The notes: a model not told the origin generated them from the letters alone. DNA of 63,650 nt, filler included, from Octopus bimaculoides (GCF_001194135.2; 6 parts of 5 records of this genome joined end to end with filler, not necessarily neighbours in it); one strand, 5' to 3'; counted from the whole stretch's first letter, positions 9,824-63,650 are shown. Program-made: numbers and translations.

Positions 9824-10388
9824 TATACAAATATTCTATAATTATAGACATAATTATAATCAGGGGTCAGCTAATTGCTTCACCATGCACCGAATTTAGA
9901 AATAGGAGTTAAAATACCTTTTCCGCTACCATAAATATCTCCCAGACAGTAACAGACTTTTTACGTAGGCAAAAAGAAAAAATAACGAATCCACACGACT
10001 CAGATTAGCTACATACGCGTTTCGGGATTAAAGTAAAGATATATTTACTGACTTATTTCCCATCACTTATGCGATGACGCTTGATCGCGTACATATTTAA
10101 TTCTAACACTCACAAATTTATATTTGAAATGCTGCACTGAAGATGGGAAATAAGTAAGTAAATATAACTTTACTTTAATGCCGAAACGCGTATGTAGCTA
10201 ATCTGAGTGGTGTGGATTCGTTATTTTTTTTTTCTTTTTGCCTACGTAAAACAAATGTGTTATTGTTTGGGATATATTTATGGTAGCGGAAAAGGAATTT
10301 TAGCTCCTATTTCTGAATTCGGTGCTTGGCGAAGCAATTAGCTGACCTCTTATTATAATTATGTCTATAATTATAGAATATTTGTATA
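9824..10388. repeat. Fold-back inverted repeat (~240-bp arms, 77-bp spacer) of a hammerhead-bearing repeat
   Basis: 9824-10064 is the reverse complement of 10142-10388 with scattered mismatches; left arm runs into a gap. Confidence 0.95.
10131..10198 (+). ncRNA. Minimal type-I hammerhead ribozyme motif (Penelope-like)
   Basis: GCUGCA-CUGAAGA-U-GG...CC-GAAA-CGCGUA-UGUAGC; stem I GCUGCA/UGUAGC 6 bp, palindromic helix III ACGCGU, predicted cleavage after GUA at 10192. Confidence 0.75.
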
Positions 10389-10650
10389 ATTATACCTAAA
10401 AAGGCTATTTTAACGTACCGAACTATTTGGGAAAATTATTAATTATTAATTAATTAATTGATTGATTAATTAATTAATTAATTAATTAATTAATTTTACC
10501 CTTTTATTATCATTGATATATATATATATTATCCGAAGTGTACAGTATTATATATTACGATACTACAGCTAATTTTAACAACCGGTTTCATGCCAGGGAT
10601 TCAACGGAGTGTTAAGTAACAATCTGGTTATGTAACCCTGCGCTCATCAG

Positions 10651-10712
10651 AGATAGCCGATCTGAAATTAAATATGGCCGTAATGGATATATAATAGTGT
10701 ACACTTTGGATG
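10651..10712 (+). CDS. Speculative internal exon (DSRSEIKYGRNGYIIVYTLD) of the + strand gene
   Basis: Good donor G|gtaagc but weak acceptor (catcag); phase 2->1 fits its neighbours. Confidence 0.3.
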
Positions 10713-11324
10713 GTAAGCCCACTCTGTTGACAGATATACGAGTGCGGGGTTTAAAAAAAGGCAAAACTAAGCAATGGAGTCGATTCGTTCGACTAAAATT
10801 CTTCAAGGTAGTGCCTCAGCATGGCCACAGTCAAATGACTGAAACAAGTAAAAGATATTTACTTACACTTCCTTCAAAATTGGACCATGTCAAGTCTAAC
10901 AATCCCATCCCCTAAGAGAATGTGTCCAATACTTTATATGACATATTTTGTCGTGTCATACCCCATTCAGTTTTGGGTTTGTTTTTGACCGAAATTTATC
11001 CCAGTATAGGTTATTAGTCTGTTATTCCTTAAAGATTAAGAAACTTTTTTCTCTTTTGATTTGTTTTGGGGTTATATTTGATAGAACGGGGCCTGTATAT
11101 GCATACAAAGTATCCTAAAACATATATACACATTGAATGATTATGAAGTCAGTATTTATTAAAATACATTTCATTTCAAAATTTGACAGTAACTTCAGAC
11201 GGAATTAATTTTTTCATGAACACTTGTTTCCAAACTGTCCGTTTTGGTCCAAGCACGACTCGTAACGCAGCAAAGCAATGAAATCACAAGCACCCAGAAA
11301 CATTTCATTCGGTATTTGTACGCA

Positions 11325-11402
11325 TTCTTGTTTTGCCTTCTACTCTTTCGTCGACGATAAAATAAGTATCAGTTGAGCACTGGGGTTGATATAATCGACT
11401 TA
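11325..11402 (+). mobile_element. MetaSINE-like SINE (family B) fragment
   Basis: gccttctactctttcgtcgacgataaaataagtatcagttgagcactgggg matches the core at 34450-34530. Confidence 0.7.
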
Positions 11403-11842
11403 ACTACTCTTAAGTAAGAGTACCCAAAGAAGATCTGAATCCTCAGCCAAGCCATGCCAAGCCAGTGTGCCAGAGTAGGCCCAGGAATCCAGTATGACCT
11501 GCAGCTCAAATTCACGGCCTACACATCGAACCGTGGTTGGTAGAGAGAAAACATGCCGAAGCCTTCGTCCTGTAACAGACTGAATATGGGTAATCCAACC
11601 CAATCAAGCCTAATCCAAAAGCCATTACCATTACACTCCTAATCTTTATCATTAGCAATACCATCATGACCACCAACACCACAACCATCCACCCCCACCA
11701 ACGTCGCCACCGCCGAAACTACCAGCAACGAAAATAATAGAAGAAATTCCACCTAGTCATGTGACCAGCTGGGATTTCCCCCCTCTCGTGTTATTACATC
11801 CTATCGTCTTATGAAACGATAGGGTACAATAGATATTGTACA

Positions 11843-12123
11843 TTATTTACATTATTTACATTTGACGGATATTTGTCCTCATCTTGTTTGTTGTTAACAC
11901 AACGTTTCGGCTGATATACCCTCCAGCCTTCGTCAGGTGTCTTGGGGAAATTTCGAACCTGGGTTCTCATTCCTAACGATGTTACTATTATTATATTATT
12001 ATTATTATTACTATTATTAATCAGGTCGCTGCCGTGAATCGAACTCGGAATCTTGGGGTTAGTAGCCCGCGCTCTTAACCANNNNNNNNNNNNNNNNNNN
12101 NNNNNCCACTACACCATATGCCC
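11843..12123 (-). mobile_element. tRNA-headed SINE-like element with hammerhead-containing tail, apparently full-length copy
   Basis: Minus strand: GGGCATATGGTGTAGTGG (A box)...GAGTTCGATTC (B box), (AAT)n spacer, hammerhead, (TGTAAATAA)n end; 24 Ns interrupt the head. Confidence 0.8.
11896..11941 (-). ncRNA. Minimal type-I hammerhead ribozyme motif
   Basis: GACAC-CUGACGA-A-GGCUG(10 nt)CAGCC-GAAA-CGUU-GUGUU; helix III palindrome AACGUU. Confidence 0.8.
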
Positions 12124-12375
12124 GTAGTGGTTAAGAGCGCGGGCTACTAACCTCAAGGTTCCGAGTTCGATTCACGGCAGCGACCTGATTAATAATAGTA
12201 ATAATAATAATGATAATATAATAATAATAATAGTAACATCGATAGGAATGAGAACCCAGGTTCGAAATTTCCCCAAGACATCTGATGAAGGCTGGAGGGT
12301 ATATCAGCCGAAACGTTGTGTTAACAACAAACAAGATGAGGACAAATATCCGTCAAATGTAAATAATGTAAATAA
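12124..12375 (+). mobile_element. Second, 5'-truncated, inverted copy of the tRNA-head/hammerhead SINE
   Basis: Starts gtagtggttaagagcgcg directly head-to-head with the first copy; a few substitutions between arms. Confidence 0.8.
12277..12322 (+). ncRNA. Minimal type-I hammerhead ribozyme motif
   Basis: GACAU-CUGAUGA-A-GGCUG...CAGCC-GAAA-CGUU-GUGUU; predicted cleavage after 12317. Confidence 0.8.
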
Positions 12376-12613
12376 CATAAGTAATTCCTCATCTCTTAAA
12401 TATAGAACTGAATAGATACTGTAGACCTACATAACACGTTAAAATAGCGCGAAGGTACGAACGGAACGATTTTCTATGATAGGTTTGTCCACCCAGTGTT
12501 AGCCTGGGGCTAAAAGCAGCAACATGAACAACAAAAGTCACTATCACCCTCACCCTCTTCATTGTCATTCCCGTCGTTCTCGCCGTCGTCGTTATTACCA
12601 ATTAACTTCAATG

Positions 12614-12658
<45 letters not shown>

Positions 12659-12705
12659 CCACTACAATCAATATTAACGTAATGTTTGTTCTTCTCTTCT
12701 TTCAG

Positions 12706-12777
12706 AGGATGGAGAGGAAGTAGATGCCATGAGCGATGTATATGACACAACTAACGATAAATCACTAGCAGAACGAG
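12706..12777 (+). CDS. Internal exon of an unidentified gene (E-DGEEVDAMSDVYDTTNDKSLAER)
   Basis: Acceptor ttcttctcttctttcag, donor G|gtacag, 72 nt, phase 1-1, open frame. Confidence 0.6.
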
Positions 12778-12805
12778 GTACAGTCTACACTACTACTTTA
12801 ATTTC

Positions 12806-13090
<285 letters not shown>

Positions 13091-13928
13091 ACATATCTGG
13101 GTACATGACGTTGCAAAAGGACATGGACAAAATGATAAACAAGGTACAACNNNNNNNNNNNNNNNNNNNNNNNNNNNNNNNNNNNNNNNNNNNNNNNNNN
13201 NNNNNNNNNNNNNNNNNNNNNNNNNNNNNNNNNNNNNNNNNNNNNNNNNNNNNNNNNNNNNNNNNNNNNNNNNNNNNNNNNNNNNNNNNNNNNNNNNNNN
13301 NNNNNNNNNNNNNNNNNNNNNNNNNNNNNNNNNNNNNNNNNNNNNNNNNNNNCAAATAACGGTCTTAGGTATACAATGAACAAAATAAACAAAACAAATG
13401 AATTCAATATAGATTCATCCTATTTTTTTAAAAAATCAAAGAAAACCTTAAATTGAAAAGTGGGTTCAAAATACATATTGTGAATAATTATATTCGAATT
13501 AGCGCTCAATTAACACATTAAAATTAAAATAAAATTTACGCTGCATTAAAATAAAAAATAAAAATTTTACAACAGTATATACGCATACTAGACTATCTAC
13601 AACATACATATATACATCAAAAGACACAGATGCATACGTACAGACAATATACGTATATAGGCGTATATTTGTAAGACATAAATACATGTACGAATACACA
13701 TGTATACATATACACATATGCACGCAATCATGCTCGCATACGAAAATTATTCAGCGTTGGAACAGGCAAGTGTATCTCAAACATATGAATCGGGCAAGTA
13801 AGGGTTGAGAAGAGTAACGTATAGATAAAGGACGTTACTAATGTAGAAAGGGAGAAAGTGTGGTTTTCGTGAGGAAAGAAAGGAAGAAAGAAAGAAAGAA
13901 GGAAAGAAAGAAGGGAAGAAAGAAATAG

Positions 13929-13963
<35 letters not shown>

Positions 13964-15090: not shown

Positions 15091-15222
15091 AAGAGTGAGA
15101 GAAAGTTGTGGTGAAAGAGTACAGCAGGGTTCGCCACCATCCCCTGCCGGAGCCTCGTGGGGCTTTTAGGTGTTTTCGCTCAATAAACACTCACAACGCC
15201 CGGTCTGGGAATCGAAACCACG
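15091..15222 (-). mobile_element. tRNA-derived SINE (family A2) internal fragment
   Basis: Near-identical to 47342-47470. Confidence 0.85.
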
Positions 15223-15850: not shown

Positions 15851-15912
15851 AGGCTGTTCCGTTGGTCGGATCAACTGGAACCCTCGACGTCGTAAGCGAC
15901 GGAGTGCCAACA
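15851..15912 (+). mobile_element. SINE 3' tail (shared A/A2 tail)
   Basis: ctgttccgttggtcggatcaactggaaccctcgacgtcgtaagcgacggagtgccaac matches 18160-18217 and 18512-18569. Confidence 0.85.
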
Positions 15913-17892: not shown

Positions 17893-18217
17893 GTGAAGGC
17901 GCGTGGCTTAGTAGTTAGGGCATTCGACTCACGATCGTAAGGCCGTGAGTTCAATTCCCGGCGACGCGTTGTGTCCTTGAGCAAGACACTTTATTTCACC
18001 TTGCTCCAGTCCACTCAGCTGGCAAAAATGAGTAGTACCTGTATTTCAAAGGGCCGGCCTTGTCACACTCTGTGTCCCGCTGAATCTCCCTGAGAACTAC
18101 GTTAGGGGTACACGTGTCTGTGGATTGCTCAGTCACTTGCACGTTAATTTCACGAGCAGTCTGTTCCGTTGATCGTATCAGCTGAGACCCTCGTCGTCGT
18201 AAACGACGGAGTGCTCC
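17893..18217 (+). mobile_element. Full-length tRNA-derived CORE-like SINE (family A, tail variant 2) with target-site duplication
   Basis: A/B-box head, CORE-like tgtgtccttgagcaagacactttatttcac; 16-bp TSD ttatgaatacaaagta at 17877-17892 and 18220-18235. Confidence 0.92.
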
Positions 18218-18799: not shown

Positions 18800-19850
18800 G
18801 ACTCCGACCATAAACTTTACCTAAATGTAAAATTTCATCAAAATCGGATGAATTGTGTAAAACTTACAGCCTATGCATGCAAAAACATCCTATGCATACA
18901 AAAAGCCTATTGATTTCTTTAAATCTTCCGTTCACGCGCAATTATCGATTTTTTTGTCTACTTTTCGTGCTGGTATCAACTTATGAACATGAATTGTAAT
19001 CACGTGTAAAATTTCTACAAAATCGATATGAATGTCTCTAAAGAAATGCTTATTTGCATTTGTGCCCTTTTCAAGCCCTTGTGAATTAAATAAACACCTT
19101 TACCGTCTCCCCCACCACAAAATTTACCTACATCTCAAATTTTATTAAAATCGTATAAAATATATAAAAGTTACGGCCAAAAATAAAATCCCTCTGGGTA
19201 TTTGCACGCAAAAAGCCCATTGGTTTTATAAAACCACTGCTCAGGCGCAATTATCAATTTTTGTCAACGCCATACACTGACATAAACTCACTGCCATGAG
19301 CCTCGCTCACTCAGCTATTTTCATCAAAATCGGACAAAAAATGCANNNNNNNNNNGATATGAATGTCTCTAAAGAAATGCTTATTTGCATTTGTGCCCTT
19401 TTCAAGCCCTTGTGAATTAAATAAACACCTTTACCGTCTCCCCCACCACAAAATTTACCTACATCTCAAATTTTATTAAAATCGTATAAAATATATAAAA
19501 GTTACGGCCAAAAATAAAATCCCTCTGGGTATTTGCACGCAAAAAGCCCATTGGTTTTATAAAACCACTGCTCAGGCGCAATTATCAATTTTTGTCAACG
19601 CCATACACTGACATAAACTCACTGCCATGAGCCTCGCTCACTCAGCTATTTTCATCAAAATCGGACAAAAAATGCAAAAACTGCAGGAAAAATAACATCG
19701 TTATGGGAATTTCCATTCAAACGCCCGATTGAGCTCACAAAAATCGATGCAAACTGAGCATTATCAAGTTATCGAAAAATGTCAGCCTTATTTGAACTTC
19801 AGGGCATATGATCTACCTAAATCATTAAAATCGGTTTGACAGACACCTTT
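18800..19850. repeat. Degenerate tandem array with recurring aaatttcatcaaaatcgg-type motif
   Basis: Motif recurs several times; ~320-bp block duplicated across an 11-N gap. Confidence 0.6.
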
Positions 19851-21379: not shown

Positions 21380-22930
21380 GTGAGATATTAAAAAACAAAC
21401 TGATAAAGTTTTGATAAGGTGTTCTCTTGCGTCCAAAATATTGGAAAATGCAAAGGTTTTCTGAAGGATCAAGGTGAAAGGATCATGAAATAAAGTGGTG
21501 GAGATATGTACGAACGATGGAGTTGCTCGCCATCTTTTACTCTTCAGGGATTATTTCCTCCCCGCCCTTTTTGAGTGAGACGATTCACTCTGCTCGTCAC
21601 ATCTTCCCAATTCTTGTCCACCTGGAGACTGGGATCAAACCAGTACTCGAGCAGTTTAGCCGGTCCGTCCATCCAGTACCTCAAAAGACTGTTGGACAGT
21701 ATGGACTTGCCTTTCTAGGTGCTGAGTGGCAAGCCCAGCAGCTTCACTTGGTTAACTTTTGCTCCTGTCACAGCCTCGCCTTCTCTTAAAACAGTGTTGA
21801 TCATCTCAATGTATTTGGTGCCCGATAGCATTATGGTGAGTATATGCAAGCACGAATATGCAAGAACGTATATACAAACACGAATCTTTCCCAATTCTCG
21901 TGCGTTTTTCGAAACTTCCAGCATCCACAGTATAGTCAGTACGTACAGAAGAGGAGAGAGGAGACACCCTTGACGGACCAAACATATGATACTTAACGAT
22001 TCTGACAGGTAGCCATTTATTCTGACCTCCGAGCAAACTTCGCTGTACATTGCACCAATCCAGCTTCTGAAGACTTTCAGTCGCTTTCAAATTGAGTTGG
22101 GTCTCATCTATGAGATGGAGGTTTTCGTAGATAGACTTGTTTGGGATAGCACATGTCTTCACATCACCAACAAGACAATGAATGACAAACACCAACCTCT
22201 TAGTTAATACCTCGGCCAAAAACTTGAACTCTACATTTAATACAGTTACGGGCTAAAATTATCAAAGTTGTCACCTTTGTTCGGGTCCGTTTTGATCAGC
22301 ATCACTATACTACGACTCACAGGACTAGGAATGCTAAAAAGCTGCAAGCATTTGCTTTGAATCGAGTACCATGAAGACCGTATTGTGGCTTTGCCACTGT
22401 GTTGTGCCTCGGTTCCCCGGGCCCATCAAATGGATTTCGTTCCTTCATGTCTTAGAACACGCTTCTATCTGCATCTTTGTGCTTCGCGTTGAAGAATTGG
22501 ACCAGTCTTGCTGTGAGCTCATCGTAACTACTTTCAACAGTGTACAACTTATGCTATTCCATCTACTAGCCTACAAAATACTCTATCTAGTTACAATCTC
22601 GATGAACGGTTGCTGTTTTCCCAGGTTCACACTAGCGCATTCGGGAAATCGATTCGGTGTGTCAGACAGTTGGAAACGACTGAACAGATTCGCCTATCAG
22701 TTAGCCCTATGTGATCCAGATGTGCATCCAAGATAACGTCCAGTCACCCACTAACTCTAAAGAGCGAGACGTTCCTAGAAAACCCTCCAAAGAAATTCGG
22801 TCGACGCACCACTGTTGAGGAAAAATGACGACTAGTCGAAAGGTGCTAACTTCGCTATTGTTTACGATGCAGGCAGACCTTATCTTGAGGCCTTTTCGAA
22901 ACAGCAATTCCACAATGCTCCAGACCAAGA
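21380..22930 (-). mobile_element. Decayed L1/Tx1-type LINE, RT region
   Basis: GDNFDNF..TVLNVEFKFLAEVLTKRL, TCAIPNKSIYENLHL, INGYLSESL...VRQGCLLSPLLYVL, GAKVN. Confidence 0.85.
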
Positions 22931-36435: not shown

Positions 36436-36749
36436 ATAAATTGTAAATCCAAAAAATAACAACAAAACTACAAAGGATTCCGCGGTACGCGTGTTTCAAG
36501 CTTTATATGTGTATAATATAATATGTGTATAATTTACAGTGTAAAGCTATCCACCTCTTACATCACACCTTTCTTCCTACTTCAACGCCGAGGTGGTATA
36601 ATTTCCTGGGAGAGGAATAATTTTGCGGCTGAGGATAGCTTTACATTGTAAATTATACACATATTATATTATACACATATAAAGCTTGAAACACGTGTAC
36701 CGCGGAATCCTTTGTAGTTTTGTTGTTATTTTTTGGATTTACAATTTAT
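36436..36749. repeat. Fold-back inverted repeat (117-bp arms, 80-bp spacer) of a hammerhead-bearing repeat
   Basis: 36436-36552 is the reverse complement of 36633-36749 with ~2 mismatches; no gap inside. Confidence 0.97.
36621..36707 (+). ncRNA. Minimal type-I hammerhead ribozyme motif
   Basis: UUUUGCGG-CUGAGGA-U-AGCUUUA...UAAAGCU-U-GAAA-CACGUGUA-CCGCGGAA; 8-bp stem I, palindrome ACACGUGU, cleavage after 36699; U.U at base of stem II. Confidence 0.75.
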
Positions 36750-37120: not shown

Positions 37121-38792
37121 CATTTGATAAAACAGTGTCTAAGTTGATGTCCAATGACTTAGTGGTGCAACTGAAAAATGTTATTAAGATAAGCACCAGG
37201 CTAGAAATAAAGTAACAGTTGTATCGATGTCATCACCTACAACTACTTATTGTGATGTATCAGCATAGTTGTGACCCAGAAACTGCAAAAGGTAAAAGAA
37301 TGCAGTAGATCAGCCAAACCCATGCCAGCATGGAAAACGGACATTAAGTGTTGATGGTGATGTTGCTGATGCTGCTGCTGCTGATGATGATAATGATTAT
37401 CATCATCATCACCATCATCATTATCATGAATATATAATTGTTTCAAATTTTGACACGAGCCCTGTAATTTTGAGGAGATGGGGTATTAGTCAATTACATC
37501 AACCCCCAGATTTTTGAGTGGTACTTACTTGATCAACACTGAAAGGACAAAAGACAAAGTTGACTTCAGCAGAATTCAAACACAGAATGTCTGTATATGA
37601 TAAGGAAAGTGTTTATCTTTGGTGCTAGATTGCCAGTTGTACATGTGGCACCAATCTATGATAAAGTATAATGTTGATAACTACCATGTGAGCAGACAAA
37701 TACATATCTACATATTACAACAATATATGATATAGTACAATATTGACAACAACTATATTTGCAGTTGAAATTTGTATGTTAATTATTGTTGTATTTGGAT
37801 GACTCACCTAAATCTTAATTACAATACTGCTATTCTTTGCCCTATTCTAGTACTGAATATATCGTGGTTGTGTGATATGAATGTGTTTAGTGTGTTTTTC
37901 ATGCGGGTGTTGATTTTAGTTTTAGTCTATTGGTTTTCAGTTGAAACAGGTTTTAGTTTCTACGTTTTCTCTTTTTATTTTTAATTTGATCTCAGTATTG
38001 GTATGATGCTTTTTATTTGATTATCTTCTATGAAACTCTTTTATCAGTTTTATAATAAGAATTTACGAGATTTTTCATTACAGATTATATGTCTGTCGAT
38101 GTGAGATGTGCTGTTTATTCCCTGATTGAATTCATAGACAGCTGTGTCTACCAATTTGTTTGTAGATCCATTATTGATTGATAGCCAAGTGAACATCCTA
38201 CCACATTCTGTTATAGATATTTAAGAATGGATATATTGCACTTCATAATGATTCCTACACCTCTGAGCTATCATTCTTACTATGCCTCATTTCTCAAATC
38301 TCTGCTTTAAATACTTTTTTTTATTTTTGTAAGTCCTTCCTTTCTAGAACTGCAACCCCCAGAAACTTTCTTTAAACCCACATTTTCCCTGCAAGCATCA
38401 ACCCACAGAAATTCAGGGTGATCATCTCCAACCACATCGACTTCAGGGAGGACTTTTTAAGGGCAACACACTCAACCATGACTCTTTTTCTTGGACTAAA
38501 TAATAAATAAGACATGATGTCACAAGGCAGTGCCAAAATTCAGTAGGTATTTGAAGAAAAAAAGGGCCACAAAAAAATCAGGCAAGAATTCCTGAAAATG
38601 ATCTTATCACTGCAGAGATATAATACTATTTAATGAATATAGTGGAAAACCAAACACTGAAAGTTTAAAACAACTGATAGACAATAATTGGACTTTAATT
38701 AGAAATAGGTATTTAATACTAGATAAATCCCAGAGTAGTAATTTCAGGTCTCCATCATCATCATCATCATAGGTGCCATTACTACCGTCTAC

Positions 38793-40159: not shown

Positions 40160-41345
40160 TGAAACCGATTGGTAAGACAGATGCAGGAGAAATACTTGGC
40201 CAGAGATAAACCTCTGTACTTGGTTTTTGTTGACGTGGAGACAGCCTTTAACAGGGTCCCACATCCCTTATCAGGTGGTCAATGTGGAAACTAGGGATAG
40301 ATGAATGATTGGTGAGAGTTGTACAAGCCATGTACATGAATGCTGTCAGTAAGATGAGGGCCAACAACAAATATAGTGAAGTATTCACTTGGTGGTTAAA
40401 TCATAAATCCCTTCAGATAGATGGCCCTGCTCGATCTGAAAAATAAATGTGTAGGAAGAAACTCTGTAAGATGTATCTGGTGTAAGCTATGGACACATAA
40501 GAGGTGGGTGCAGCAATATCAAAGTAAGGTTCACAGGGAAGATAGTTTTTGTGTGTGGAAGGTGCACAGGTACAATAAACGCCAAAAATGTGCAGAAAAT
40601 AGATTCCATCACATGCCAGGGGAAAAACTAGAAGCTTCCATTACCTAGGTGACCAAGTCAGTAGCAGGGGTGGATGCTCTGAGAGTATAGCTGTTAGAAT
40701 AAGAATAGGCAGGACAAAGTTCAGAGAGCTCCTACCCCTGCTGGTAACAAAGGGCCTCTTGTTCAGAGTGAAAGGCAGACTGCATGATGTTTGTGTGTAA
40801 ATAGCCATGCTACATGGCAGAGGAATATGAGCTGTGACTGCTGAGGACATGCAACGGCCTGTAAGAAATGAAACTAGTATGCTCTGCCGGATATGCAATG
40901 TCAGTGTGCCTGCACGACAGTGTAAGCATCCTGTGAGAAAAGTTAGACATAAGCAGCATCAGATGTGGTGTGCAAGAGAGACAGCTGCACTGGTATGGTC
41001 ATGTGATGTGTATGGATGAGGACAGCTGTGTCCTCATCGCATAACTAGCCCATTAAAAGCACCCTTCGATTATTGGGCGATATGCTGTGCTTGTGAAGAC
41101 CCCTCAAACCGAGTGAAATCATAGTTGTGGCCAATGCCAGTACCATCTGACTGGCACCCATACCAGTGGCATGCAAAAACACCCACTACACTCTCGGAGT
41201 GGTTGGCATTAGGAAAAGCATCCAGCCATAAAAACCTTGCCAAATCAGATCAGAATCTGGTGTATCTCCCCAGCTTGCTAGTTTTCAGTCAAACCATCCA
41301 ACCCACACCAGAATGGAAAGCAGATGTTAAATGATGATGATGATG
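40160..41345 (+). mobile_element. 5'-truncated, internally deleted RTE-clade LINE
   Basis: LVRQMQEKYLARDKPLYLVFVDVETAFNRVP...; ends ccagaatggaaagcagatgttaaa(tga)n. Confidence 0.9.
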
Positions 41346-51015: not shown

Positions 51016-51459
51016 AAATTCTCAGTTTTATGATTAGACATAAACCAAGTAAATCTGTTACCTGGCAAATTGCGAGACGTTTCACATTAAACAATGTGAC
51101 AGTTAATAACATCACATAACACTATCATCACTTCAAACCACCGACTCAACCTTATCATCTATCCTTCTCTCTTCTGAGAATAACATCAATTGCTCTCTGT
51201 ACTTTGAGTGTTCATCTTTGTAATGTATTCTGACATTTTGTGTCACTTGTTAAAAAATTTGTGGTTCCCCTAAAATTTTAGCACTCTAGGTGATTACTTA
51301 TTTTACCTAGTATATAGCTCTGACAATAATTTCGTGTAATACATTTTATTTGGTTAGGATAATATGTATGTGTGCATGTTTATATATGTGTATGTATATC
51401 ATAATAGATCGCTAACCACTACACACATTTTTTTTCTCTGCTTGTTTCTTTCCGTGTTT

Positions 51460-51495
51460 CTTTCTGTAGAAGAGCGTAGGCTCGAAACGTTAAAG
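51460..51495 (+). ncRNA. Hammerhead-like motif with variant core (CUGUAGA)
   Basis: CUUU-CUGUAGA-A-GAGC(GUAG)GCUC-GAAA-CGUU-AAAG; all helices intact, conserved A6 replaced by U. Confidence 0.55.
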
Positions 51496-51583
51496 GCTTT
51501 TTCAATTCCTGAGTGTTATACTAATATATCTGTTTGTTTTCTACACCACCTGTCTTCGTCTTTTGTTTTTTTTTGTGAATTCT

Positions 51584-51620
<37 letters not shown>

Positions 51621-51682
51621 GGAGAAATTATACAAAATGTATAAGTGGATGATGAGTAATGCACCAGCACAGTTTCGATTAC

Positions 51683-51802
51683 CTGTTATTATCTGTAGAT
51701 TGCAGGAACTTCATAGTGGTGGTTGAGGTAACAGTATTAATAAAATAGATGGGAAAAAAGATTTTATCTAATACAACACATGTTTCGACCTGTTCTGGGT
51801 CT
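51683..51802 (-). CDS. Internal exon (DPEQVETCVVLDKIFFPIYFINTVTSTTTMKFLQSTDNN-R)
   Basis: Long T-rich acceptor ending gaag, donor AG|gtaatc, 120 nt, phase 2-2, joins 49524 in frame. Confidence 0.55.
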
Positions 51803-51872
51803 CTTCGGGTACATAAATAAATGAAAAATAAAAAGTCTCACTTGAGATTCGGTTTTACGTATAACTAAATGT

Positions 51873-51904
<32 letters not shown>

Positions 51905-52639: not shown

Positions 52640-54900
52640 ATCATCATCATCATCATCATCATCTTTTAATGTCTGCTTTCCATGCTGTCATGGGTTGGAT
52701 GGTTTGACTGAGGACTGGGAAGCGAGGAGGCTGCACTAATCTGTTCTGGCAAGGTTTCTGTAGGTGGATGCCCTTCCTAACACCAGCTGGCATTGGCCAC
52801 GCTTGAATGGTGCTTTTTATGTGCCCCTGGCATGGGTGCCAGTCAGGTGGCACTGGCATCAACCATGACAATGATTTCACTTGACTCAGTAGGTCTTCTC
52901 AAGCACAGCATATTGCCTGATGATTGCAGGGTACTTATAAATGGGCCAGTTATGCAACACTGGCACCGGCCACAGATACATTCTCATTTGGCTAGCTGGG
53001 TTTTCTCAAGCACAGCATGTCTCCAAAGGTCTCACTCACTTGTCATTGCCTCTCTGAGGCCCAACGTTTGGAAGTCGTGCTTCATCACCTCATCCCAGGT
53101 CTTCCTGGGTCCACCTCTTCCACAGGTTCCCTCCACCGTTAGGGTGTGACATTTCTTCACACAGCTGTCCTCATCCATACACAACACATGATCATACCAG
53201 TGCAGTTGTCTGTCTTGCACACCACATCTGATGCTTCTTATATCCAACTTTTCTCTCAGGGCGCTTACACTCTGTTGTGTATGCACACTGACATTACAGA
53301 TCCAGTGGAACACACTAGCTTCATTTCTTTCAAGCCTATGCATTTCCTTAGCAGTCACAGCCCATGTTTCACTGCTGGGTAATATGGCTATTTGCATGCA
53401 TGCATCATACAGTCTACGTTTCATTCTGAGTGAGAGGCCCTTTGTTACTAGCAAAGGTTGGAACTCTCTGAACTTTGCCCAGGCTAACATTATTCTAGCA
53501 GCTACACTCTCAGAGCATCCACCCTCGCTACTGACTTGGTCACCTAGGTAACAGAAGCTATCAACTACTTCTAGTTTTTCCCCTGAGCATGTGATGGAAT
53601 CTGTTTTTTGTACATTTTTGGTGTTTATTGCTCCTGTGCATCTGCCACACACAAAATCTACCTTTCCAGTTAACCTTCCTTTGATATTGCTGCAACTCTT
53701 ATGTGTCCATAGCTTACACCGGGTACATCTTACGGAGTATCTACCTATGCCTTTTCTGCAGGTTGAGTAGGGCTATCTACTTGAAGGGATTTGTGATTTG
53801 TCTGCCTTCCTACTTACTAAGACTTTGGTTATTGCTAGATTGACTCTAAGGTCCTTTGATTCTAGACCTTGCTTACACACCTGGAACTTCTCCTCTAGTT
53901 CTGGTAGTGACTCAGCTATTAGAGCAAGGTCATCAGCATAGAGGAACTCCCTGGGGCAGCCTGTCTTAAATTTCTCTGTTATTGCCTGGAGGACTATGAT
54001 GAGCAAGAGGAGGCTGAAGACTGATCCTTGGTGAACCCCTACTTCTACCCCAAACTCTTCACTATACTTGTTGCCAACCCTCACCTTACTGACGACATCC
54101 CTGTACATGGGTTGTACAGCTCTCACCAACCATTCTTCTATCCCTAGTTTCTGCATTGACCACCAGCTAAGGGGTTGGGGGACCCTGTCAAAGGCGTTCT
54201 CCATGTCAATGAAAGCAAAGTACAGAGGTTTATCTTTGGCTAGGAATTTCTCCTGCAGCTGTCTTACCAGAGATATAGCATCAGTGGTGCTTTTCCCTGG
54301 CACAAACCCAAACTACATCTTGTCTAAACTAACTCTCTCCCTAATTAGTTGGACTATGACCCTCTCCATGACTTTCATCACCTGGTCCAACAATTTGACA
54401 CCTCTGTAATTATTCCTATCTAATGTGTCACCTTTACCTTTGTAACAGTTGACTATGGTGCTGCTACACCAGCCATTGGGTATGACTCCGTCATGTATCA
54501 CCTGATTGACTATACGGGTGACTAGACTATAGCTGACACCACCAGATATTTTAAGCATCTCTGTGGTGATTCCTGATGGGCTGGGGGCTTACCTTGTCTT
54601 CATATCCTTAATTGCTTTATCTACCAAGGTACTGTCAATTTGGATAGCTGGTTACTCTGTTGGGTCGACATTTGACAGACTCTCTATCTCCCATTCATTC
54701 TCTTCATTTAGCAAGATGTACACTATAAAAGATGTACCTTCATAGTGGCATCTCCAAGTCTCTCTTTGCAGCATCATTGAACACAAATGAGCCATCATCC
54801 ATGCGGACACATCTAGAGGGAGAAGGGATGGGGAAGCATTCCATACAGTAAGCCGTAATAGGTGCTCAGGAGAAAGACATCTGGTAGAGGTCAGAGGATA
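52640..54900 (-). mobile_element. 5'-truncated RTE-clade LINE (RT, Cys-rich insert, 3' UTR, (GAT)n tail)
   Basis: NYRGVKLL, GKSTTDAI, FIDMENAFDRVP, GVHQGSVFS, LYADDL motifs; frameshifted. Confidence 0.95.
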
Positions 54901-57528: not shown

Positions 57529-57573
57529 GGCCAGAGTTCTTTCGTCACACATCTGTGACCTCATCAGTGGTCC
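57529..57573 (-). ncRNA. Minimal type-I hammerhead ribozyme motif (partly decayed)
   Basis: GGACCA-CUGAUGA-G-GUCAC(AGAUGU)GUGAC-GAAA-GAACUC-UGGCC; stem I 3 bp plus mismatch. Confidence 0.6.
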
Positions 57574-57894: not shown

Positions 57895-58062
57895 AGGCAC
57901 AAATTTGGTGGGAGGGGGCTAGTCGATTTCATTAACCCCTGTGCTTGACTAGGTCTTAATTTATCGATCTCGAAAGGATGAACGGCAAGGTTGGAAATTG
58001 AACTTAGAACGTACAGCATTTTTGCTCGGTGTGCTAACCATTCTGCCAGCTCGTCACCTTGT
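57895..58062 (-). mobile_element. MetaSINE-like SINE (family B), diverged
   Basis: Minus: aaggtgacgagctggcagaatggttagcac...ttcatcctttcgagatcgataaattaag. Confidence 0.75.
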
Positions 58063-58316
58063 GTTACTTCTTAAACCGTTGTCAGAAATTTGTAGAGTTT
58101 GCCACCACATATCGGTTTCCACGTTAGCAGTCAAGTTTTATTTTGTTGTTTTTTAGTCGAATTTATGTAGGATTTATAGCCTAAATACTTTTTTCTGCTA
58201 AGCTTCCATGCGAGGTCTGATCAATTAGTATCCGGACTGTTGACATTGTAACGACGCTAAAGCACGCAGAGTGACCTTGAACTCTGCTGTGCATGCGCAA
58301 TATAGACATACATGCT

Positions 58317-58654
58317 GAGACCCCCTTCGGTCATGACTGACCATGGGATTGCACCTAGAAAGTTACCCTCCCAGGTACAAGTCTGGGCAAGGTTGTTTAT
58401 GGAAGACCAGCAGTCGCCCATGCATACCAGCCTCCCCTCTCCACGCCACCAGTGTTATTCAAGGGAAAGGCAAAGGGGCCAATACAGCTTGGCACCTCTG
58501 ACGTCGCAACTCATTTCTACAGCTGAGTGAACTGGAGCAACGGGAAATAAAGTGTCTTGCTCAAGAACACAACACGCAGCCCGGTCCGGGATTCGAACTC
58601 ACAACCTCACGATCGTAAGCTTGATGTTCTAACGACTGAGCCATGCGCCTTCAC
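58317..58654 (-). mobile_element. Full-length SINE family A with tail variant 3
   Basis: Head gtgaaggcgcatggctcagtcgttag, CORE-like gtgttcttgagcaagacactttatt, different 3' half ending catgaccgaagggggtctc. Confidence 0.88.
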
Positions 58655-59698
58655 ATACATACATACATACAAACTTGCATACACACACACACACATACAC
58701 ACGCACGCACACACAGACACACATACATATATATATGAAGAGTCATAAAAAAAGGGTTAAACCATTAGGTTTGCGCTTTTGGCCAGAAATCGATCCGATT
58801 AGATCACCTTCGAACATGTGAATACGATTTGAATGTGAGAAATAGTTCGATCTGGTTAGATCACGCTGGAACATGTGAATGCAGTTCAATAAGAAATATT
58901 TTTTTCCTTTCGTTTCACTGTTGTCCTTACTATTAGCTCAGATTGAATTTGAACCAACGTCGTCATAGACAAGAAAGACTCTGTGTACCTACAATTCTAA
59001 GTTTTCCGAGCAACTTTACTTAGAATGCAGTATGGGCCTGTTCTATACCGTGTTACTCTATCTCCTCTCTTTCTCTCTATATATGTATCTATCTATCTAT
59101 CTTTCTCACTCACTCCTTCGCTCTCTCTCTCTCCTCTTCTCTCTCTCTTCTTCTCTCTCTCCTCTTCCCTCTCTCCTCTTCTCTCTCTCCTCTTTTCTCT
59201 CTTCCTCTCTCTTCTTCTCTGTCTTTCGAGGGGTAGTTTTGGACTTCTTCCGAAACAGATTGTGTCCTTCTCTCAGACGTTCACTCCCGATTCGCCAGCT
59301 ATTGCCTTCTATTCATTTTCAGCACATGGTTGATGTATAGTATTTGATGGCATCAAAGACGCACAGACATACTAGACTCATCTCAATTTCAGCAGCGCAA
59401 GAAAAAGAGAAGTTTTCGGTGCATTAAAACTTATGGGGGGCCCAAAGTCGCATATAGGACCCGGTGTGATTTTCGGGACATTTTTTTTCTTTTAAAAAAA
59501 AAAACATGTCTTATATATCGTGAAATATGGTATTTGGTTTTGCTACTGTTTTTCGGTTTTTACAGTCTGAATAACACAATACACGTCCCCCACAGAATGA
59601 CTTTCGGGTCTGCTCTTATTAAATCCAGCTGTTTGTTAACATGGTAGAGATTTCTCGGTGTATATCTTTAGATCGTCCACCGAGAAATAATGGCTTAC

Positions 59699-59736
59699 TG
59701 TGGTATTAGTTGCTGCTCTATACTGGAGCATGTCAA
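59699..59736 (-). CDS. Speculative small exon
   Basis: Acceptor tttctttaacaaataacag, donor gtaagc; open in two frames (LTCSIEQQLIP or DMLQYRAATNTT). Confidence 0.3.
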
Positions 59737-59954
59737 CTGTTATTTGTTAAAGAAACCACAATCGTTTTAGGGCTAAAATAAACAGAACAAACGAAGACTG
59801 TCGCCTTGAAATGTTCTTTGCCATTGTATGTACGTGTATATGTTTCATTGAGATTTATTCGTTCCTCTTTCGTTCGAAGAATTCAAACAGATCACAAACA
59901 AAATGACAAAGTTCTTTTGTTTAACTCAGGACATCTCTGGCAGTTTGTGGTTAC

Positions 59955-59995
59955 CTCCATTGGTCGATATATGCATGTGGATATCTTAACCGTAT
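59955..59995 (-). CDS. Speculative small exon (D-TVKISTCIYRPME)
   Basis: Acceptor ccatattcatacag, donor GAG|gtaacc, phase 1->0. Confidence 0.25.
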
Positions 59996-60134
59996 CTGTA
60001 TGAATATGGATAAGCTTGCACTTATGTGTGTGCGTGTAAATATATTCTATATGTATATGTGATTGTGTGAATTTGTTCACTGAGGAAACACAAATGAGAA
60101 TCCCTGAAATATTTCACAAAATTTTTTATTTATT

Positions 60135-60275
60135 CTATTTACATTTGACGGATATTTGTCCTCATCATGTTTGTTGTTAACACAAGGTTTCGGCTGATAT
60201 ATCCTCCAGCCTTCATCAGGTGACTTGGGGAAATTTCAAACCTGGGTTCTCATTCCTAAGGTATTTTTCGATGTT
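60135..60275 (-). mobile_element. Third, headless copy of the hammerhead-tailed SINE
   Basis: Matches 11855-11985; hammerhead at 60179-60224 with helix III mutated to AACCUU. Confidence 0.85.
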
Positions 60276-60281
60276 ATTTTC

Positions 60282-60336
<55 letters not shown>

Positions 60337-60565
60337 GTGATATACGAGGCAAGAACAACTAATTCTATGATAATGAGTAATGATATAATATTCACGTCAA
60401 AAGGAAGGGAAAAAAACCATATTCTTGAAAATATATGTATATGAATTGCGAAAACTCTTGTAATTTCTTGTGTTAGAGACAGGTCGTCTGCACACGTCGC
60501 GTGCAGACGTCTGCATATGTGCTGTAGTGTACGCGTGTTTGTGTCTGTGTGAACCTTTATCTGTA

Positions 60566-60599
<34 letters not shown>

Positions 60600-60846
60600 G
60601 GAAAGAGTTTATATACGTGAGAACAGGTTTGCACGCGTGCAGACAGATCACTTATATAATTGGTAAATATGTATATATATCAAGATTTATGTGTGTATAG
60701 ATGCGATATATATATATATATCTACAAATATGTAAAGCACACACGTATATCTATCTATCTATCTATTTATCTATCTATCTATCCATATATATATATATAT
60801 ATAGATATATATATATATAGATATATATGCAGGAAGCAAAAGTGCA

Positions 60847-60878
<32 letters not shown>

Positions 60879-60949
60879 TTGTGTGGCAGAACGAGAGATA
60901 AGATATCTGAAATTGAAAATGGTTATCTTGAAAAAGTTTGGCACTTCAC

Positions 60950-61021
60950 CATAATGCGTTCTGGGAATATCTATCGTCAGTATATCTAGATGTGCAGTCA
61001 GTTCTCCTCCTTCCAAGATAC
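60950..61021 (-). CDS. Candidate exon (G-ILEGGELTAHLDILTIDIPRTHY)
   Basis: Acceptor tcgtttaatcag, donor G|gtgaag, 72 nt, phase 1-1, protein-like composition. Confidence 0.4.
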
Positions 61022-61246
61022 CTGATTAAACGAACCCAATGAAGTCTTTTATGACATGTTTCCTCCAGCACAGGGATACCATTTTTTACCTAGGAACCCT
61101 TCTGATTACTGCTTTATTCTGGTGGAGCCATATACACATTTGATGTTTAAAGAAACTAGTTTTATAGGAATTTCTTCCAAAATTCTTATTTTGTTTTCCA
61201 CACATTAACTCGTTAGGATGAAGGATGTAAAAACGTTAGAGTAAGA

Positions 61247-61367
61247 AAAAGGACAATAATAACAATATACAAAATACATGTGACATATTATGTCAATGCC
61301 ATTTTTGTAACTACTGATATGACATAATATGTCACGTGTGTTTGCATATTGTTATTATTGTCCTTTT
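61247..61367. repeat. Short fold-back (48-bp arms, ~24-nt loop)
   Basis: aaaaggacaataataacaatat...tgtca / tgaca...atattgttattattgtcctttt. Confidence 0.9.
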
Positions 61368-62595
61368 AGTAAACAAATAAACAAGTAAATTGGCATAATA
61401 CAATGTCTGCAAGTTGATGAATACCACTTATTAATCCCCTCCGTTTTCTTATTGCTATATATATATANNNNNNNNNNNNNNNNNNNNNNNNNNNNNNNNN
61501 NNNNNNNNNNNTTAATTAATTAANNNNNNNNNNNNNNNNNNNNNNNNNNNNNNNNNNNNNNNNNNNNTGGGTACAGGATGTCACAAAATGTAAACAACAT
61601 GAAATACGAGGACAAATTTGGGTATGCAAACGAGAGAAACAAATGGAAAACAAAAGAAGTAACATAAAGAACGACCCTTCATCAGTTGTTGGTTGTCTAT
61701 CGACTCCTCATTTCGAGCTTTGAACGACAATATGAGACTTCGAAAAGCAATTGCTTTCGCGAACCAAACTAAAATTTGGGATTTGCGGAGGGTCAAAGTT
61801 GATGACAAAAACAGGACAGTGGAGACATACAACAAACGAAAACAAACACGGAGGGCTGTTGGGTCAGACAAGGTAGAGAAGCGAACGCTAGAGGAATGTT
61901 GTCTTTGACAAGAGAAAAGATAGAAGAGGAGACAGATAAGAATGCATGTGGTCTGCACGACAGACTGAAGGAAAAAGAAAGATGATCACGTGAGGAAAAG
62001 AAAGATGGACGATGGTCATGTGTGAGCAACGAGAGAGTGTAAAGGAGAAAGAGTGAGAGAAAGCGGGACAGACAAATAGAAAACGGTGAAGGGGAGAAAA
62101 ATAATTAGAGAAAGGATGAGAGAGAAAACGAATATATATACTGAAAAGCAATGGCTTCTGTAGAACCATTGATCAGATAGAGCAGAAGAAAAATGATTTC
62201 ATCCGATCCTATGCCCTTATCAGACCATACATTGACATTCTTGATGTCATCATGGAAAACTGCTGTGGCAAGGCTGATCAGGATAGGGAAATCGAAGCAA
62301 AAACTAGAAGTCTCTTTGATCCAGTGATTCTCCAAAAGAATGAATCCCCCAACTCTGTGAACAACCAGGCTGATAAGCATAGAGAAGCCAAGGAAGCAAC
62401 AACCAGAAGTCCCTCTGTGTCAGTGGTTCTACAGCGGAATGGAGCCCTTACCCCATTGGAGAACCAGTGGAATGCAAGTGCTACCACAAGAAAAGGAAGG
62501 AAAGAAAACGAGCACAAGCATAAAGAAACAGTTCAGCAATCATAGGATGCATTTGATCAGATAAAAATGCTTAAATAGTCTTGACTATTTCCCTT

Positions 62596-62974
62596 CTACC
62601 ATGAAGAGAAACCATTGAGCCGGCGGATTACCAAGATATAGCCCCACCCCCAGATTATCACAGATCCTCCTTCATGTTCAACAGTTGGAAGAAGGCAGTC
62701 TAGGTCAAATGCTTCTTTTGGCTGTCTCCACAGGTATACTCGTCCGGTGGTCGGAAATAAGGTAAAGGATGACTCGTCCGAGAAAATAACATTCTTCCAC
62801 TGCTCTAGGGACCAATTCTGTAGGTTTTTGCTCCACTCTAAATGCTTTACAACGTTTGTTTTTGAAAGTATTGGTTTTCTGATTGCAGCCCTCCCGTAAA
62901 ATCTGGCTTTGTGCAGCTCCCGGCGAGCAGTTTTTGTGGAAACTAGATTCTTGAGGTGATCATTAAACTCTGCA
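62596..62974 (-). mobile_element. Tc1-family transposase fragment
   Basis: VSTKTARRELHK...GRAAIRKP...WKNVIFSDESSF...LLPTVEHEGGSVIIWG. Confidence 0.92.
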
Positions 62975-63650
62975 GAGAGAGAACACGCACACAGTTCTAT
63001 CAATTATATTTGGAGGCATATTTCAAATGTCTTCGTTTTGGCGAGCCGAACCTGGAAATGACTCTGCAGAAAATAATTAGATTAATATCAATTTAAACCA
63101 GTGGCCTAGCATACTGAAAAAAATCTGAAGATTCAGAAAATTATATTACATATAAGAGGAATGATCACTAGGTGGACTCCTAATATGCTAAATGTAGACC
63201 CCATATGTTCTGCAGAGTCATTTCCGGGTTCGGCCCGCCAAAATGAAGACATTTGAAATATGCCCCCAAATATAATTCATAGAACTGTATGCATGTTCTC
63301 TCTCAGGAGGACGTCTCGTGCATAGTTCTGTAAATTATATTTTCTATGACGGTCACACTGAAGATTTGCAGACATTTACGTAATGTAAATGGTAACAATG
63401 AAATCTGGTATGTGACTAATCATTATATTTTGTATCTTTTCATTTGTCTTGCTCGCTTTACGTTCTGGCGTTTGCCGAATTTTCTTGAGAACAATTTTTC
63501 TTAGTGGTTAAACCAGATGGGGTCTACATTTAGCATATTAGGAGTCGACCTAGTGGTCATTCCTCTTATATATATGTAATATAATTTTCTGAATCTTCAG
63601 ATTTTTTCAATATGCTAGGCCACTGGTTTAAATTGATATTAATCTAATTA
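62975..63650. repeat. Interleaved inverted repeats A-B-A'-(hammerhead)-B'
   Basis: A 62975-63071 / A' 63208-63304; B 63074-63204 / B' 63517-63650 (runs to the window end). Confidence 0.95.
63351..63417 (+). ncRNA. Type-I hammerhead ribozyme motif
   Basis: GGUCACA-CUGAAGA-U-UUG..CAUUUAC/GUAAAUG..CAA-U-GAAA-UCUGGUA-UGUGACU; 7-bp stem I, cleavage after GUA at 63410; helix III imperfect. Confidence 0.7.

What the first reader, a model, noticed from the sequence alone, without database searches (positions are those of the whole stretch)
10131..63417. Eight hammerhead motifs from about six unrelated families in 63 kb
Motifs at 10131(+), 11896(-), 12277(+), 36621(+), 51460(+), 57529(-), 60179(-) and 63351(+) share an extra or unpaired nucleotide after the core and a very short, usually palindromic helix III, but have unrelated stems and flanks. 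No intact Penelope ORF is present. If this density is typical, the genome hosts a very large and diverse population of non-autonomous ribozyme retroelements that standard annotation would file as unknown repeats.
Basis: partly seen in the sequence, partly recalled or inferred. Interest (0 to 1): 0.78.

Follow-up and report, generated by a model that had tools for sequence, protein, structure and literature searches.

The report
Octopus Penelope-type hammerheads, one tRNA-headed family
This stretch of likely octopus DNA holds nine hammerhead-ribozyme motifs of the minimal kind already known from Penelope-like jumping genes, likely decayed leftovers of such elements; the most abundant family likely begins with a tRNA-type promoter, which would make it a short mobile element copied by Penelope rather than the usual LINE machinery.

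Summary
All eight motifs are present, and a ninth was missed (core 51808, minus). A strict descriptor finds 4-7 motifs against 0.01-0.38 in shuffles. The eight are seven loci in six families; 11896 and 12277 are two arms of one insertion. The shared traits (extra base after A9, palindromic mini helix III, solo copies, opposite-strand pairs, many families) are the published description of Penelope-like element (PLE) minimal hammerheads. A similar density is reported for Schistosoma. So the finding as posed is largely known biology in a new host, probably Octopus. One family adds something. It is very high-copy (roughly 10^4 to 2x10^5). It has two 3' ends 35-41 bases apart, AT-rich flanks, no poly(A) and inverted partner copies, which is the PLE insertion signature. 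At this locus it begins with a tRNA-like head whose A and B boxes sit at tRNA positions. Reads suggest the same head at one more locus. It is likely a SINE copied by PLE machinery, but head linkage was not measured genome-wide. Its RNA shows no ends at the cleavage site and looks A-to-I edited.

The parts
9824..10064 (-). Inverted, 5'-truncated partner arm of family 1; stops inside the hammerhead core (at G8)
   Evidence: self-BLAST palindrome 9824-10388; arm alignment
10066..10405 (+). Family 1 direct copy (ends approximate); multi-copy, depth rising to the 3' end
   Evidence: summed DNA contig depth about 175x unique at the motif and about 1,460x near the 3' end
10131..10198 (+). Hammerhead, family 1: extra U, long helix II with one mismatch in this copy, helix III palindrome, predicted cut after 10192
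   Evidence: level C; the partner arm keeps the intact helix II pair
11843..12123 (-). Left arm of the tRNA-headed family: full head (split by a 24-N gap), (TAA)n, hammerhead, 3' end without tail
   Evidence: a DNA contig joins unique flank to the arm end (table 8)
12106..12116 (-). Pol III A box of the left arm, starting at head position 8
   Evidence: regex match to a recalled A-box consensus
11896..11941 (-). Minimal hammerhead, tRNA-headed family (extra A, 6-bp helix II, palindromic helix III; predicted cut 11901/11900)
   Evidence: level B; fold z -2.6
12124..12189 (+). tRNA-like head of the right arm (first 11 or so bases missing), B box at 12165-12173
   Evidence: not recognised by ARAGORN or the Rfam tRNA model
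12190..12236 (+). (TAA)n spacer between head and body
   Evidence: Tandem Repeats Finder
12277..12322 (+). Minimal hammerhead, right arm; predicted cut after 12317
   Evidence: level B; family variation
12323..12375 (+). 3' body up to the first family terminus (12369-12375)
   Evidence: loose ends in RNA reads and DNA contigs (table 7)
12376..12410 (+). Optional 35-41 base tail; second family terminus; present on this arm only
   Evidence: tail depth 17-22% of body depth in DNA
36436..36552 (-). Inverted partner arm of family 3; stops at N7 of the core
36620..36708 (+). Hammerhead, family 3: U.U at 10.1/11.1, long helix II, 8-base palindromic helix III; element ends at 36749 in (TA)n
   Evidence: level B
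51459..51496 (+). Hammerhead, family 4, with A6U core change; element about 51395-51586 ends in (TA)16
   Evidence: level D
51771..51812 (-). Ninth hammerhead (family 7, U4C, no extra base); element 51619-51877 lies between two (TA)n tracts
   Evidence: Rfam RF00163 E 5e-4; level D
57529..57573 (-). Weakest motif, family 5: 6-bp helix II, 3-bp helix I with a bulge, imperfect helix III
   Evidence: level C only
60126..60336 (-). Third copy of the tRNA-headed family, without head and without tail; (TAA)n at its 5' side; motif 60179-60224 with G16.2C
62975..63207 (-). Inverted partner copy of the family 6 unit; abuts a Tc1 transposase remnant
63208..63650 (+). Family 6 unit of about 445 bp, no ORF, with hammerhead 63351-63417; likely runs on past the window as a partial tandem
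   Evidence: (z -3.0)

Best explanation
The window holds nine minimal type I hammerhead motifs in seven unrelated repeat families that are likely 3' ends left by Penelope-like element (PLE) reverse transcription, and the most abundant family is likely a tRNA-headed SINE that borrows a PLE enzyme. Shown: the motifs, inverted partner arms at 4 of 8 loci, and for the 11936/12282/60219 family two 3' termini 35-41 bases apart with AT-rich flanks, no poly(A), very high depth, and at this locus a head with A and B boxes followed by (TAA)n. Inferred mechanism: Pol III transcribes head, spacer, hammerhead and tail (no T4 stop inside). A PLE RT/GIY-YIG protein binds the 3' part, cuts AT-rich DNA on both strands and starts cDNA at either of two internal sites, giving copies with or without the tail. 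Two cDNAs started from the two ends of one break join head to head and give the palindromic insertions. The hammerhead is predicted to cut only as a dimer or with protein help, so solo transcripts stay whole and keep their promoter. It is likely retained as part of the signal that the PLE protein reads, more than as a working catalyst. Most genomic copies are decaying, and their RNA is likely edited by ADAR.
For: Enrichment over shuffles. Every named trait matches the published PLE min-HHR. Inverted arms at 10137, 12282, 36629 and 63358 match the inverted 5'-truncated copy described for PLEs. Loose ends at 12369/12370/12375 (890, 339, 730 reads in X22) and at 12410 (625 reads; 92 and 106 contigs in two DNA runs), flanks AT-rich at 0.41-0.47 agreement in most rows. 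These termini lie 52-58 and 93 bases past the predicted cut; in the anole PLE, cDNA starts 111-118 bases into the ORF and the hammerhead cuts at 26, i.e. 85-92 past. DNA variants of 4% or more inside the motif fall at N7, loop II and CpGs (20 of 24 such changes in X1 were shown). Head: A box at position 8 and GTTC at position 53 if the 24-N gap is a 3-base overlap. The head occurs nowhere else in the window. In X24, 72 reads (agreement 0.94) show a variant head, inverted, abutting a body truncated at 12324; it differs at 3 of 30 letters from this locus, so it is a second locus. No pile-up of read ends at the cut site in three RNA runs.
Against: No autonomous partner was found: no PLE ORF in the window, and three frame searches plus one deep search gave only octopus gene models that carry the repeat, or nothing. 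Head linkage rests on 2 loci: both read layings skipped the head and spacer as repeat, and the third copy (60219) has no head. ARAGORN and Rfam do not recognise the head. Absence of T4 is weak, since 80% of shuffles of the element also lack it. The tail and copy number were tested for one family and partly for a second; five families rest on single copies. A (TA)3+ run follows 5 of 9 cores within 260 bases against 27% of random places, which is only suggestive. Standard RNA-seq is a poor detector of ribozyme ends.
Confidence: 0.62

Rival explanations
1. All families are ordinary 5'-truncated ends of autonomous PLEs. The tRNA head is a local chimera: a PLE end landed in the (TAA)n tail of an unrelated SINE and the joined RNA was copied once or a few times.
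For: The anole PLE endonuclease prefers ATT, so (TAA)n could be a target rather than a spacer. The 60219 copy has (TAA)n but no head. An earlier scan note from another genome judged a similar SINE-PLE inverted pair a one-off (unchecked).
Against: Both arms carry head, spacer and body, so one RNA held all three. A second, diverged head adjoins a truncated body at another locus. The head has no stand-alone copy in the window. No read consensus or protein hit shows coding sequence upstream of the body.
Confidence: 0.27
2. These are active retrozyme-type elements: the hammerheads cut multimeric transcripts into circular RNAs that are reverse-transcribed by rolling circle.
For: The family 6 unit is about 445 bp, without ORF and probably a partial tandem, the size range of non-LTR retrozymes. 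Family 2 keeps the core across copies.
Against: No same-strand tandem pair of motifs lies in the window. RNA depth relative to DNA depth is no higher than for neighbouring SINEs (5.0e-4 vs 6.3e-4 and 1.8e-3). No read ends pile up at the cut site, and about 4,000 reads span it in X22. Published retrozymes carry canonical motifs and no promoter.
Confidence: 0.07
3. The tRNA-headed family is a normal LINE-mobilised SINE that once captured a hammerhead.
For: RTE-like and other LINE remnants are in the window, and SINEs dominate octopus repeats.
Against: Two fixed 3' termini 35-41 bases apart, no poly(A) or simple-repeat tail, and palindromic double insertions are described for PLEs.
Confidence: 0.03
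4. The motifs are chance matches, or the palindromes are assembly artefacts beside gaps.
For: Most motifs fold no better than shuffles (7 of 9). The 11843-12375 palindrome is centred on an N gap. 57567 passes only the relaxed level.
Against: Counts exceed all 200 shuffles at three levels. Paired arms differ at several positions and only one has the tail. Independent contigs join both outer arm ends to unique flank (record 8, record 8).
Confidence: 0.01

Closest known systems
Minimal hammerheads in PLE pseudo-LTRs (Cervera and de la Pena 2014, PMC4209133; Lunse et al. 2017 seen only as a cited title)
   Same: Type I, extra base between 9 and 10.1, short helix I, long helix II, palindromic mini helix III, mostly solo, opposite-strand pairs, many families per genome.
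   Different: Host not found in print in my searches. One family may reach 10^4 to 2x10^5 copies against 2,000-9,000 motifs per genome reported there. Two motifs have U.U in place of G10.1-C11.1.
PLE insertion structure: anole Poseidon PAc (PMC11167929) and general PLE anatomy (PMC8557442)
   Same: Optional 30-40 base tail from two RT start sites, AT-rich or (TA)n targets, inverted 5'-truncated partner copy, no RNA-seq read ends at the hammerhead cut.
   Different: No ORF here; one family has a tRNA-like Pol III head in place of a pseudo-LTR promoter.
Sm-alpha / Sj-alpha SINE-like elements of Schistosoma (as described in PMC2770079 and PMC6765202)
   Same: tRNA-derived Pol III promoter followed by a hammerhead; tens of thousands of copies; similar density per base.
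   Different: Those are reported as cleaving in vitro and often tandem, and the passages I read name no mobilising enzyme. Here the motif is the minimal PLE type, copies are solo or inverted, and the 3' end shows the PLE tail.
Non-LTR retrozymes (PMC7229834; bioRxiv 10.64898/2026.07.22.740005)
   Same: Short non-coding hammerhead units thought to be mobilised by PLEs; family 6 (about 445 bp) resembles them.
   Different: Retrozymes are tandem, have canonical motifs, make circular RNA and seem to lack promoters; none of that is shown here.
Octopus tRNA-derived SINEs (Ohshima and Okada 1994, seen only as a cited title; tRNA-Core and tRNA-Deu in PMC8967140)
   Same: tRNA-type head, very high copy number, same genus.
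   Different: I could not compare sequences. This family may already have a SINE name without its hammerhead and PLE tail having been noted.

Membership tests
PLE minimal hammerhead (min-HHR) | CUGANGA and GAAA core with UH triplet, type I topology | tested here: met
   7 of 9 have the exact core; 2 have one change (A6U, U4C)
PLE minimal hammerhead (min-HHR) | Extra nucleotide between 9 and 10.1 | tested here: met
   6 of 9; two have a U.U pair instead, one has none
PLE minimal hammerhead (min-HHR) | G10.1-C11.1 pair | tested here: met
   7 of 9; not met in 36629 and 63358
PLE minimal hammerhead (min-HHR) | Very short palindromic helix III | tested here: met
   6 of 9 fully self-complementary, 3 imperfect (rows)
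PLE minimal hammerhead (min-HHR) | Weak cleavage, as dimer or with protein | not testable with these tools
   No read ends at the cut site is consistent but not a test
PLE-made insertion | Optional 30-40 base tail at one end (two RT start sites) | tested here: met
   Family 2: termini 12369-12375 and 12410; tail on one arm only. Not tested for the other families
PLE-made insertion | Inverted 5'-truncated partner copy | tested here: met
   4 of 8 loci
PLE-made insertion | AT-rich or (TA)n targets, no poly(A) | tested here: met
   AT-rich loose-end consensus for family 2; (TA)3+ within 260 bases in 5 of 9 vs 27% expected, suggestive only
Autonomous PLE | RT plus GIY-YIG ORF between pseudo-LTRs | tested here: not met
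   No such domain in 263 frames; no partner found
tRNA-derived SINE | Head with A and B boxes at tRNA spacing | tested here: met
   A box at head position 8, GTTC at 53 if the gap is a 3-base overlap; consensus recalled; ARAGORN and Rfam negative
tRNA-derived SINE | Head is a constant part of the family | tested here: inconclusive
   2 loci with head (window; X24 reads), 1 without (60219); head skipped in both read layings
tRNA-derived SINE | Short, non-coding, high copy | tested here: met
   About 290 bases; depth of the same order as the neighbouring SINE
tRNA-derived SINE | Pol III transcription | not testable with these tools
   No T4 inside the element, but 80% of its shuffles also lack T4
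tRNA-derived SINE | LINE-derived 3' end or poly(A)/simple-repeat tail | tested here: not met
   PLE-type double terminus instead; no LINE library was available for direct comparison
Non-LTR retrozyme | Tandem units each with a hammerhead | tested here: not met
   No same-strand tandem motif pair in the window; family 6 is cut by the window end and may be a partial tandem
Non-LTR retrozyme | Abundant circular RNA | not testable with these tools
   RNA-to-DNA depth of family 2 is not above neighbouring SINEs

The most novel reading that the evidence does not exclude
One of the most abundant repeats of Octopus genomes is a tRNA-headed, Pol III SINE whose 3' end is a Penelope pseudo-LTR piece with a minimal hammerhead, mobilised to about 10^5 copies by a PLE RT/GIY-YIG protein: a SINE class that parasitises PLEs instead of LINEs, and a natural map of the minimal RNA signal that a PLE enzyme needs.
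Probability: 0.55. Interest if true: 0.68.

Novelty: new variant of a known kind. Interest (0 to 1): 0.48.

Why it matters
SINEs are defined by borrowing LINE enzymes. A tRNA-headed element with the Penelope tail signature would show that PLE enzymes also copy Pol III RNAs in trans, at scale. Retrozyme papers have proposed such trans-mobilisation from shared motifs and phylogeny, not from insertion signatures. The family's last 170 bases would delimit what a PLE protein recognises, and would test whether the hammerhead is kept as a binding fold rather than a catalyst, which is an open question in the PLE literature. For cephalopod genomics, part of the large unclassified SINE load may be PLE-driven, and its palindromic insertions are ready substrates for the heavy A-to-I editing of these animals. 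The count and diversity of motifs alone would be a new host record, not new biology.

Tried and rejected
No genome is held for this window, so no genome-wide scan was possible. A 17-letter pattern scan of metagenome contigs gave 118 loci, all short chance matches by BLAST (best listed alignment 28 bases). Rfam finds only one of nine motifs, below its cut-off; its many miRNA hits are microsatellites. ARAGORN and two local Rfam scans did not recognise the head. Pfam on 263 frames: no GIY-YIG. The 54-codon open frame through family 2 was tested as a possible PLE N-terminus; it hit only an O. sinensis gene model that begins in the repeat. A 50-residue frame upstream of 57567 that looked like a PLE end found 0 relatives in 1.84 billion proteins. 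A frame over family 4 found nothing, so whether A6U is family-wide is open. RNAcofold of two copies of the 11936 motif gave a dimer paired through helix II, not helix III, so it does not support the active dimer. The idea that partner arms stop at the edge of helix II holds at 2 loci and 1 RNA joint, but other joints of family 2 lie elsewhere (12297/12340, 12326/12365); not adopted. Lunse et al. 2017 is not held.


Full report
Setting. The window is microsatellite-rich eukaryotic DNA with 3,810 N. No genome is held. A frame over the main hammerhead family hits gene models named Octopus bimaculoides (82% over 29% of 95 aa) and O. sinensis (89% over 67% of 54 aa), so the host is probably an Octopus. 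DNA runs of three coded organisms hold the repeat. Pfam on 263 of 371 frames found an RT at 53776-54312, a weak RT at 21718-22086 and Tc1/mariner pieces, but no GIY-YIG.

Observation. All eight motifs are present and a ninth lies at 51771-51812 minus. A descriptor that allows one extra base or a 10.1/11.1 mismatch finds 4, 7 and 7 motifs at levels B, C and D against shuffle means of 0.01, 0.14 and 0.38; none of 200 shuffles reached those counts. The loosest level gave 13 against 3.8, reached by 5 of 200. One level D hit (49790, AT-rich) and three more at level E are probably chance. Keeping the 40 cores and shuffling only their flanks gave mean 0.34, max 3, against 7. The descriptor was tuned after I saw the motifs. 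Pairwise alignment groups 11936, 12282 and 60219 (scores 221-289); three other pairs exceed their shuffle maximum only slightly (43 vs 27, 31 vs 28, 27 vs 24), so there are seven families at eight loci. Several copies carry damage that should abolish or weaken cleavage.

Anatomy. Four loci have an inverted partner arm placed head to head: 9824-10388, 11843-12375, 36436-36749 and 62975-63650. Craig et al. describe exactly this for PLEs, with a 30-40 bp tail often at one end only (PMC8557442, passages). The 51464 and 51808 elements end in the same (TA)16 from opposite sides. The 63358 motif sits in a unit of about 445 bp without ORF whose inverted copy shows how the unit closes, so a partial tandem probably continues past the window.

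The abundant family. Laying reads and contigs at 85% likeness gave summed DNA depth of 7.4 million at the core and 10.8 million at peak against 41-55 in most unique bins of run X1, and 2.0 million against about 10 in X14. The tool warns that this is not a copy number, and overlapping short contigs can inflate it up to about 30-fold, so I give 10^4 to 2x10^5. Two loci in 59.8 kb give 4,000-121,000 per Gb, and the neighbouring SINE with 4 copies in the window has 13.6 million. Family 1 is far rarer, about 175 times unique at the motif and 1,460 times near its 3' end, the gradient expected from 5' truncation.

The PLE signature. Family copies end at 12369-12375 or at 12410, in RNA reads and in DNA contigs of two organisms, and run on into AT-rich sequence without poly(A) (table 7). 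The longer end has 17-22% of the depth. In the window only the right arm has this tail. Frangieh et al. showed that the PLE tail is the stretch between two internal RT start sites, that the endonuclease cuts both strands at AT-rich DNA, that the hammerhead needs the protein to cut and is not needed for insertion, and that RNA-seq shows no ends at its cut (PMC11167929, parts 1-2 of 4). The distal terminus here lies 93 bases past the predicted cut, against 85-92 there.

Conservation of the motif. Of 24 changes at 4% or more in X1, 20 were shown. Inside the motif they are N7 (11.5% A, 10.6% C; 43% C in X14), loop II (12298, 9.6%), four CpG positions, and the window's private T at 12281. Variation at the free position with a fixed core suggests selection among source copies, but four unseen rows and a young family limit the inference.

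The head. Both arms begin with the same 65-80 base head followed by (TAA)n. The left arm's first bases lie across the 24-N gap, whose two sides repeat the same three bases. If the gap is that overlap, an A box starts at position 8 and GTTC at position 53, the tRNA positions (consensus recalled). ARAGORN and Rfam do not call it. The head occurs nowhere else in the window. In run X24, 72 reads show a head variant, 27 of 30 letters alike, inverted and directly abutting a body cut at 12324, which is the structure expected at a second palindromic insertion. Against: the 60219 copy has (TAA)n but no head, and both layings skipped head and spacer as repeat, so the share of headed copies is unknown. 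A local chimera remains possible; an earlier scan note reports such a one-off in another genome (unchecked).

RNA. The library is unstranded. Family RNA relative to DNA depth (5.0e-4) is no higher than for two neighbouring SINEs (6.3e-4, 1.8e-3), which fits passive read-through. No ends pile up at the cut site in X22, X23 or X24. Of 31 variant rows compared (40 of 73 shown; I dropped the window's private allele and 8 rows in tail and flank), 13 of 17 A>G or T>C rows are at least 8-fold higher in RNA than in DNA, against 0 of 14 others (Mann-Whitney p 2e-4). This points to A-to-I editing, including the extra A (9-11%) and a helix II A (11-13%). RNA and DNA come from different animals, contigs drop rare variants and a few loci dominate the reads, so it is not proven. 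Editing of repeats is known in squid (PMC9068888, passages).

Comparison with what is known. Cervera and de la Pena list the extra base, G10.1-C11.1, palindromic helix III, solo copies, opposite-strand pairs 100-700 bp apart and high family diversity, with 2,000-9,000 motifs per genome (PMC4209133, parts 1-2 of 4). S. mansoni has about 38,500 hammerheads (PMC2770079, passages); with a genome near 0.37 Gb (recalled) that is about 100,000 per Gb, within the 58,000-263,000 implied here. Acropora has more than 6,000 in 16 families and axolotl up to 120,000 retrozymes (PMC7229834, passages). Sm-alpha joins a Pol III promoter to a hammerhead (PMC6765202, passages). Retrozymes are argued to be non-autonomous PLE derivatives (bioRxiv 10.64898/2026.07.22.740005, parts 1-2 of 5) and seem to lack promoters (PMC7761336, passages). 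Short non-autonomous Penelope elements are reported in butterflies (PMC6685494, passages). For cephalopods I found 235 Rfam hammerheads in giant squid (PMC6962438, passages), no use of the word hammerhead in PMC8967140 (passages), and none in the two of three parts read of the O. vulgaris annotation (PMC13282606). PMC10886601 had the terms only in its reference list. Searches found no paper on octopus PLE hammerheads or on a tRNA-headed SINE with a PLE tail. The library lacks most subscription papers, and Repbase, Dfam, Lunse 2017 and Ohshima and Okada 1994 could not be seen.

Verdict. Its proposed novelty, many solo minimal hammerheads from many families, is known biology (PLE origin about 0.9). 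What is worth following is the tRNA-headed family: probably a SINE moved by PLE machinery (about 0.55-0.65), cheap to settle with one genome-wide count. Interest 0.48.

Noticed in passing
window 12245-12375 (family 2), runs X22 and X24: A>G and T>C changes at 20-21 and 13-14 places in RNA against 2-3 and 2 in DNA contigs: likely A-to-I editing of the repeat.
   Followed up: partly
window 12314-12316 and 11902-11904: A 3-base deletion in helix III, next to the predicted cut, is in about 9% of RNA reads but 0.1-0.3% of DNA depth; probably one highly expressed copy.
   Followed up: no
window 12290/12345 and 12326/12365: Opposite-strand joints seen in RNA only (134-146 and 23-59 reads); probably expressed palindromic insertions at other loci.
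   Followed up: no
window 10064 and 36552: Both inverted partner arms stop at G8 or N7 of the core, the 5' edge of helix II; one RNA joint stops at G10.1, others do not.
   Followed up: partly
window 37737-37790 plus: Possible U3-A8 core variant (core at 37743) with 4-bp helices; 0.12 expected per shuffled window, so perhaps chance.
   Followed up: partly
window 62599-63003 minus: Tc1 transposase remnant (Pfam HTH_Tnp_Tc3_2) interrupted at 62975 by the family 6 insertion.
   Followed up: no
window 53035-54312 minus and 40170-41031 plus: Two decayed copies of a LINE (RT plus PHD-like finger, RTE-like by recall), 82-84% alike.
   Followed up: no
window 8657-8788, 17893-18033, 58509-58654: Another tRNA-headed SINE family in three copies; weak Rfam tRNA hit at 17899-17968 (E 0.25).
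   Followed up: no
window 61247-61367: A 120-base imperfect palindrome with no hammerhead core; unexplained.
   Followed up: no
P0002, P0003: Octopus gene models (a dystrobrevin isoform and an uncharacterised protein) begin in the family 2 repeat: exonisation or annotation error.
   Followed up: no
window 19025-19676: Two 100% identical 321-base copies around a 10-N gap; likely an assembly duplication.
   Followed up: no
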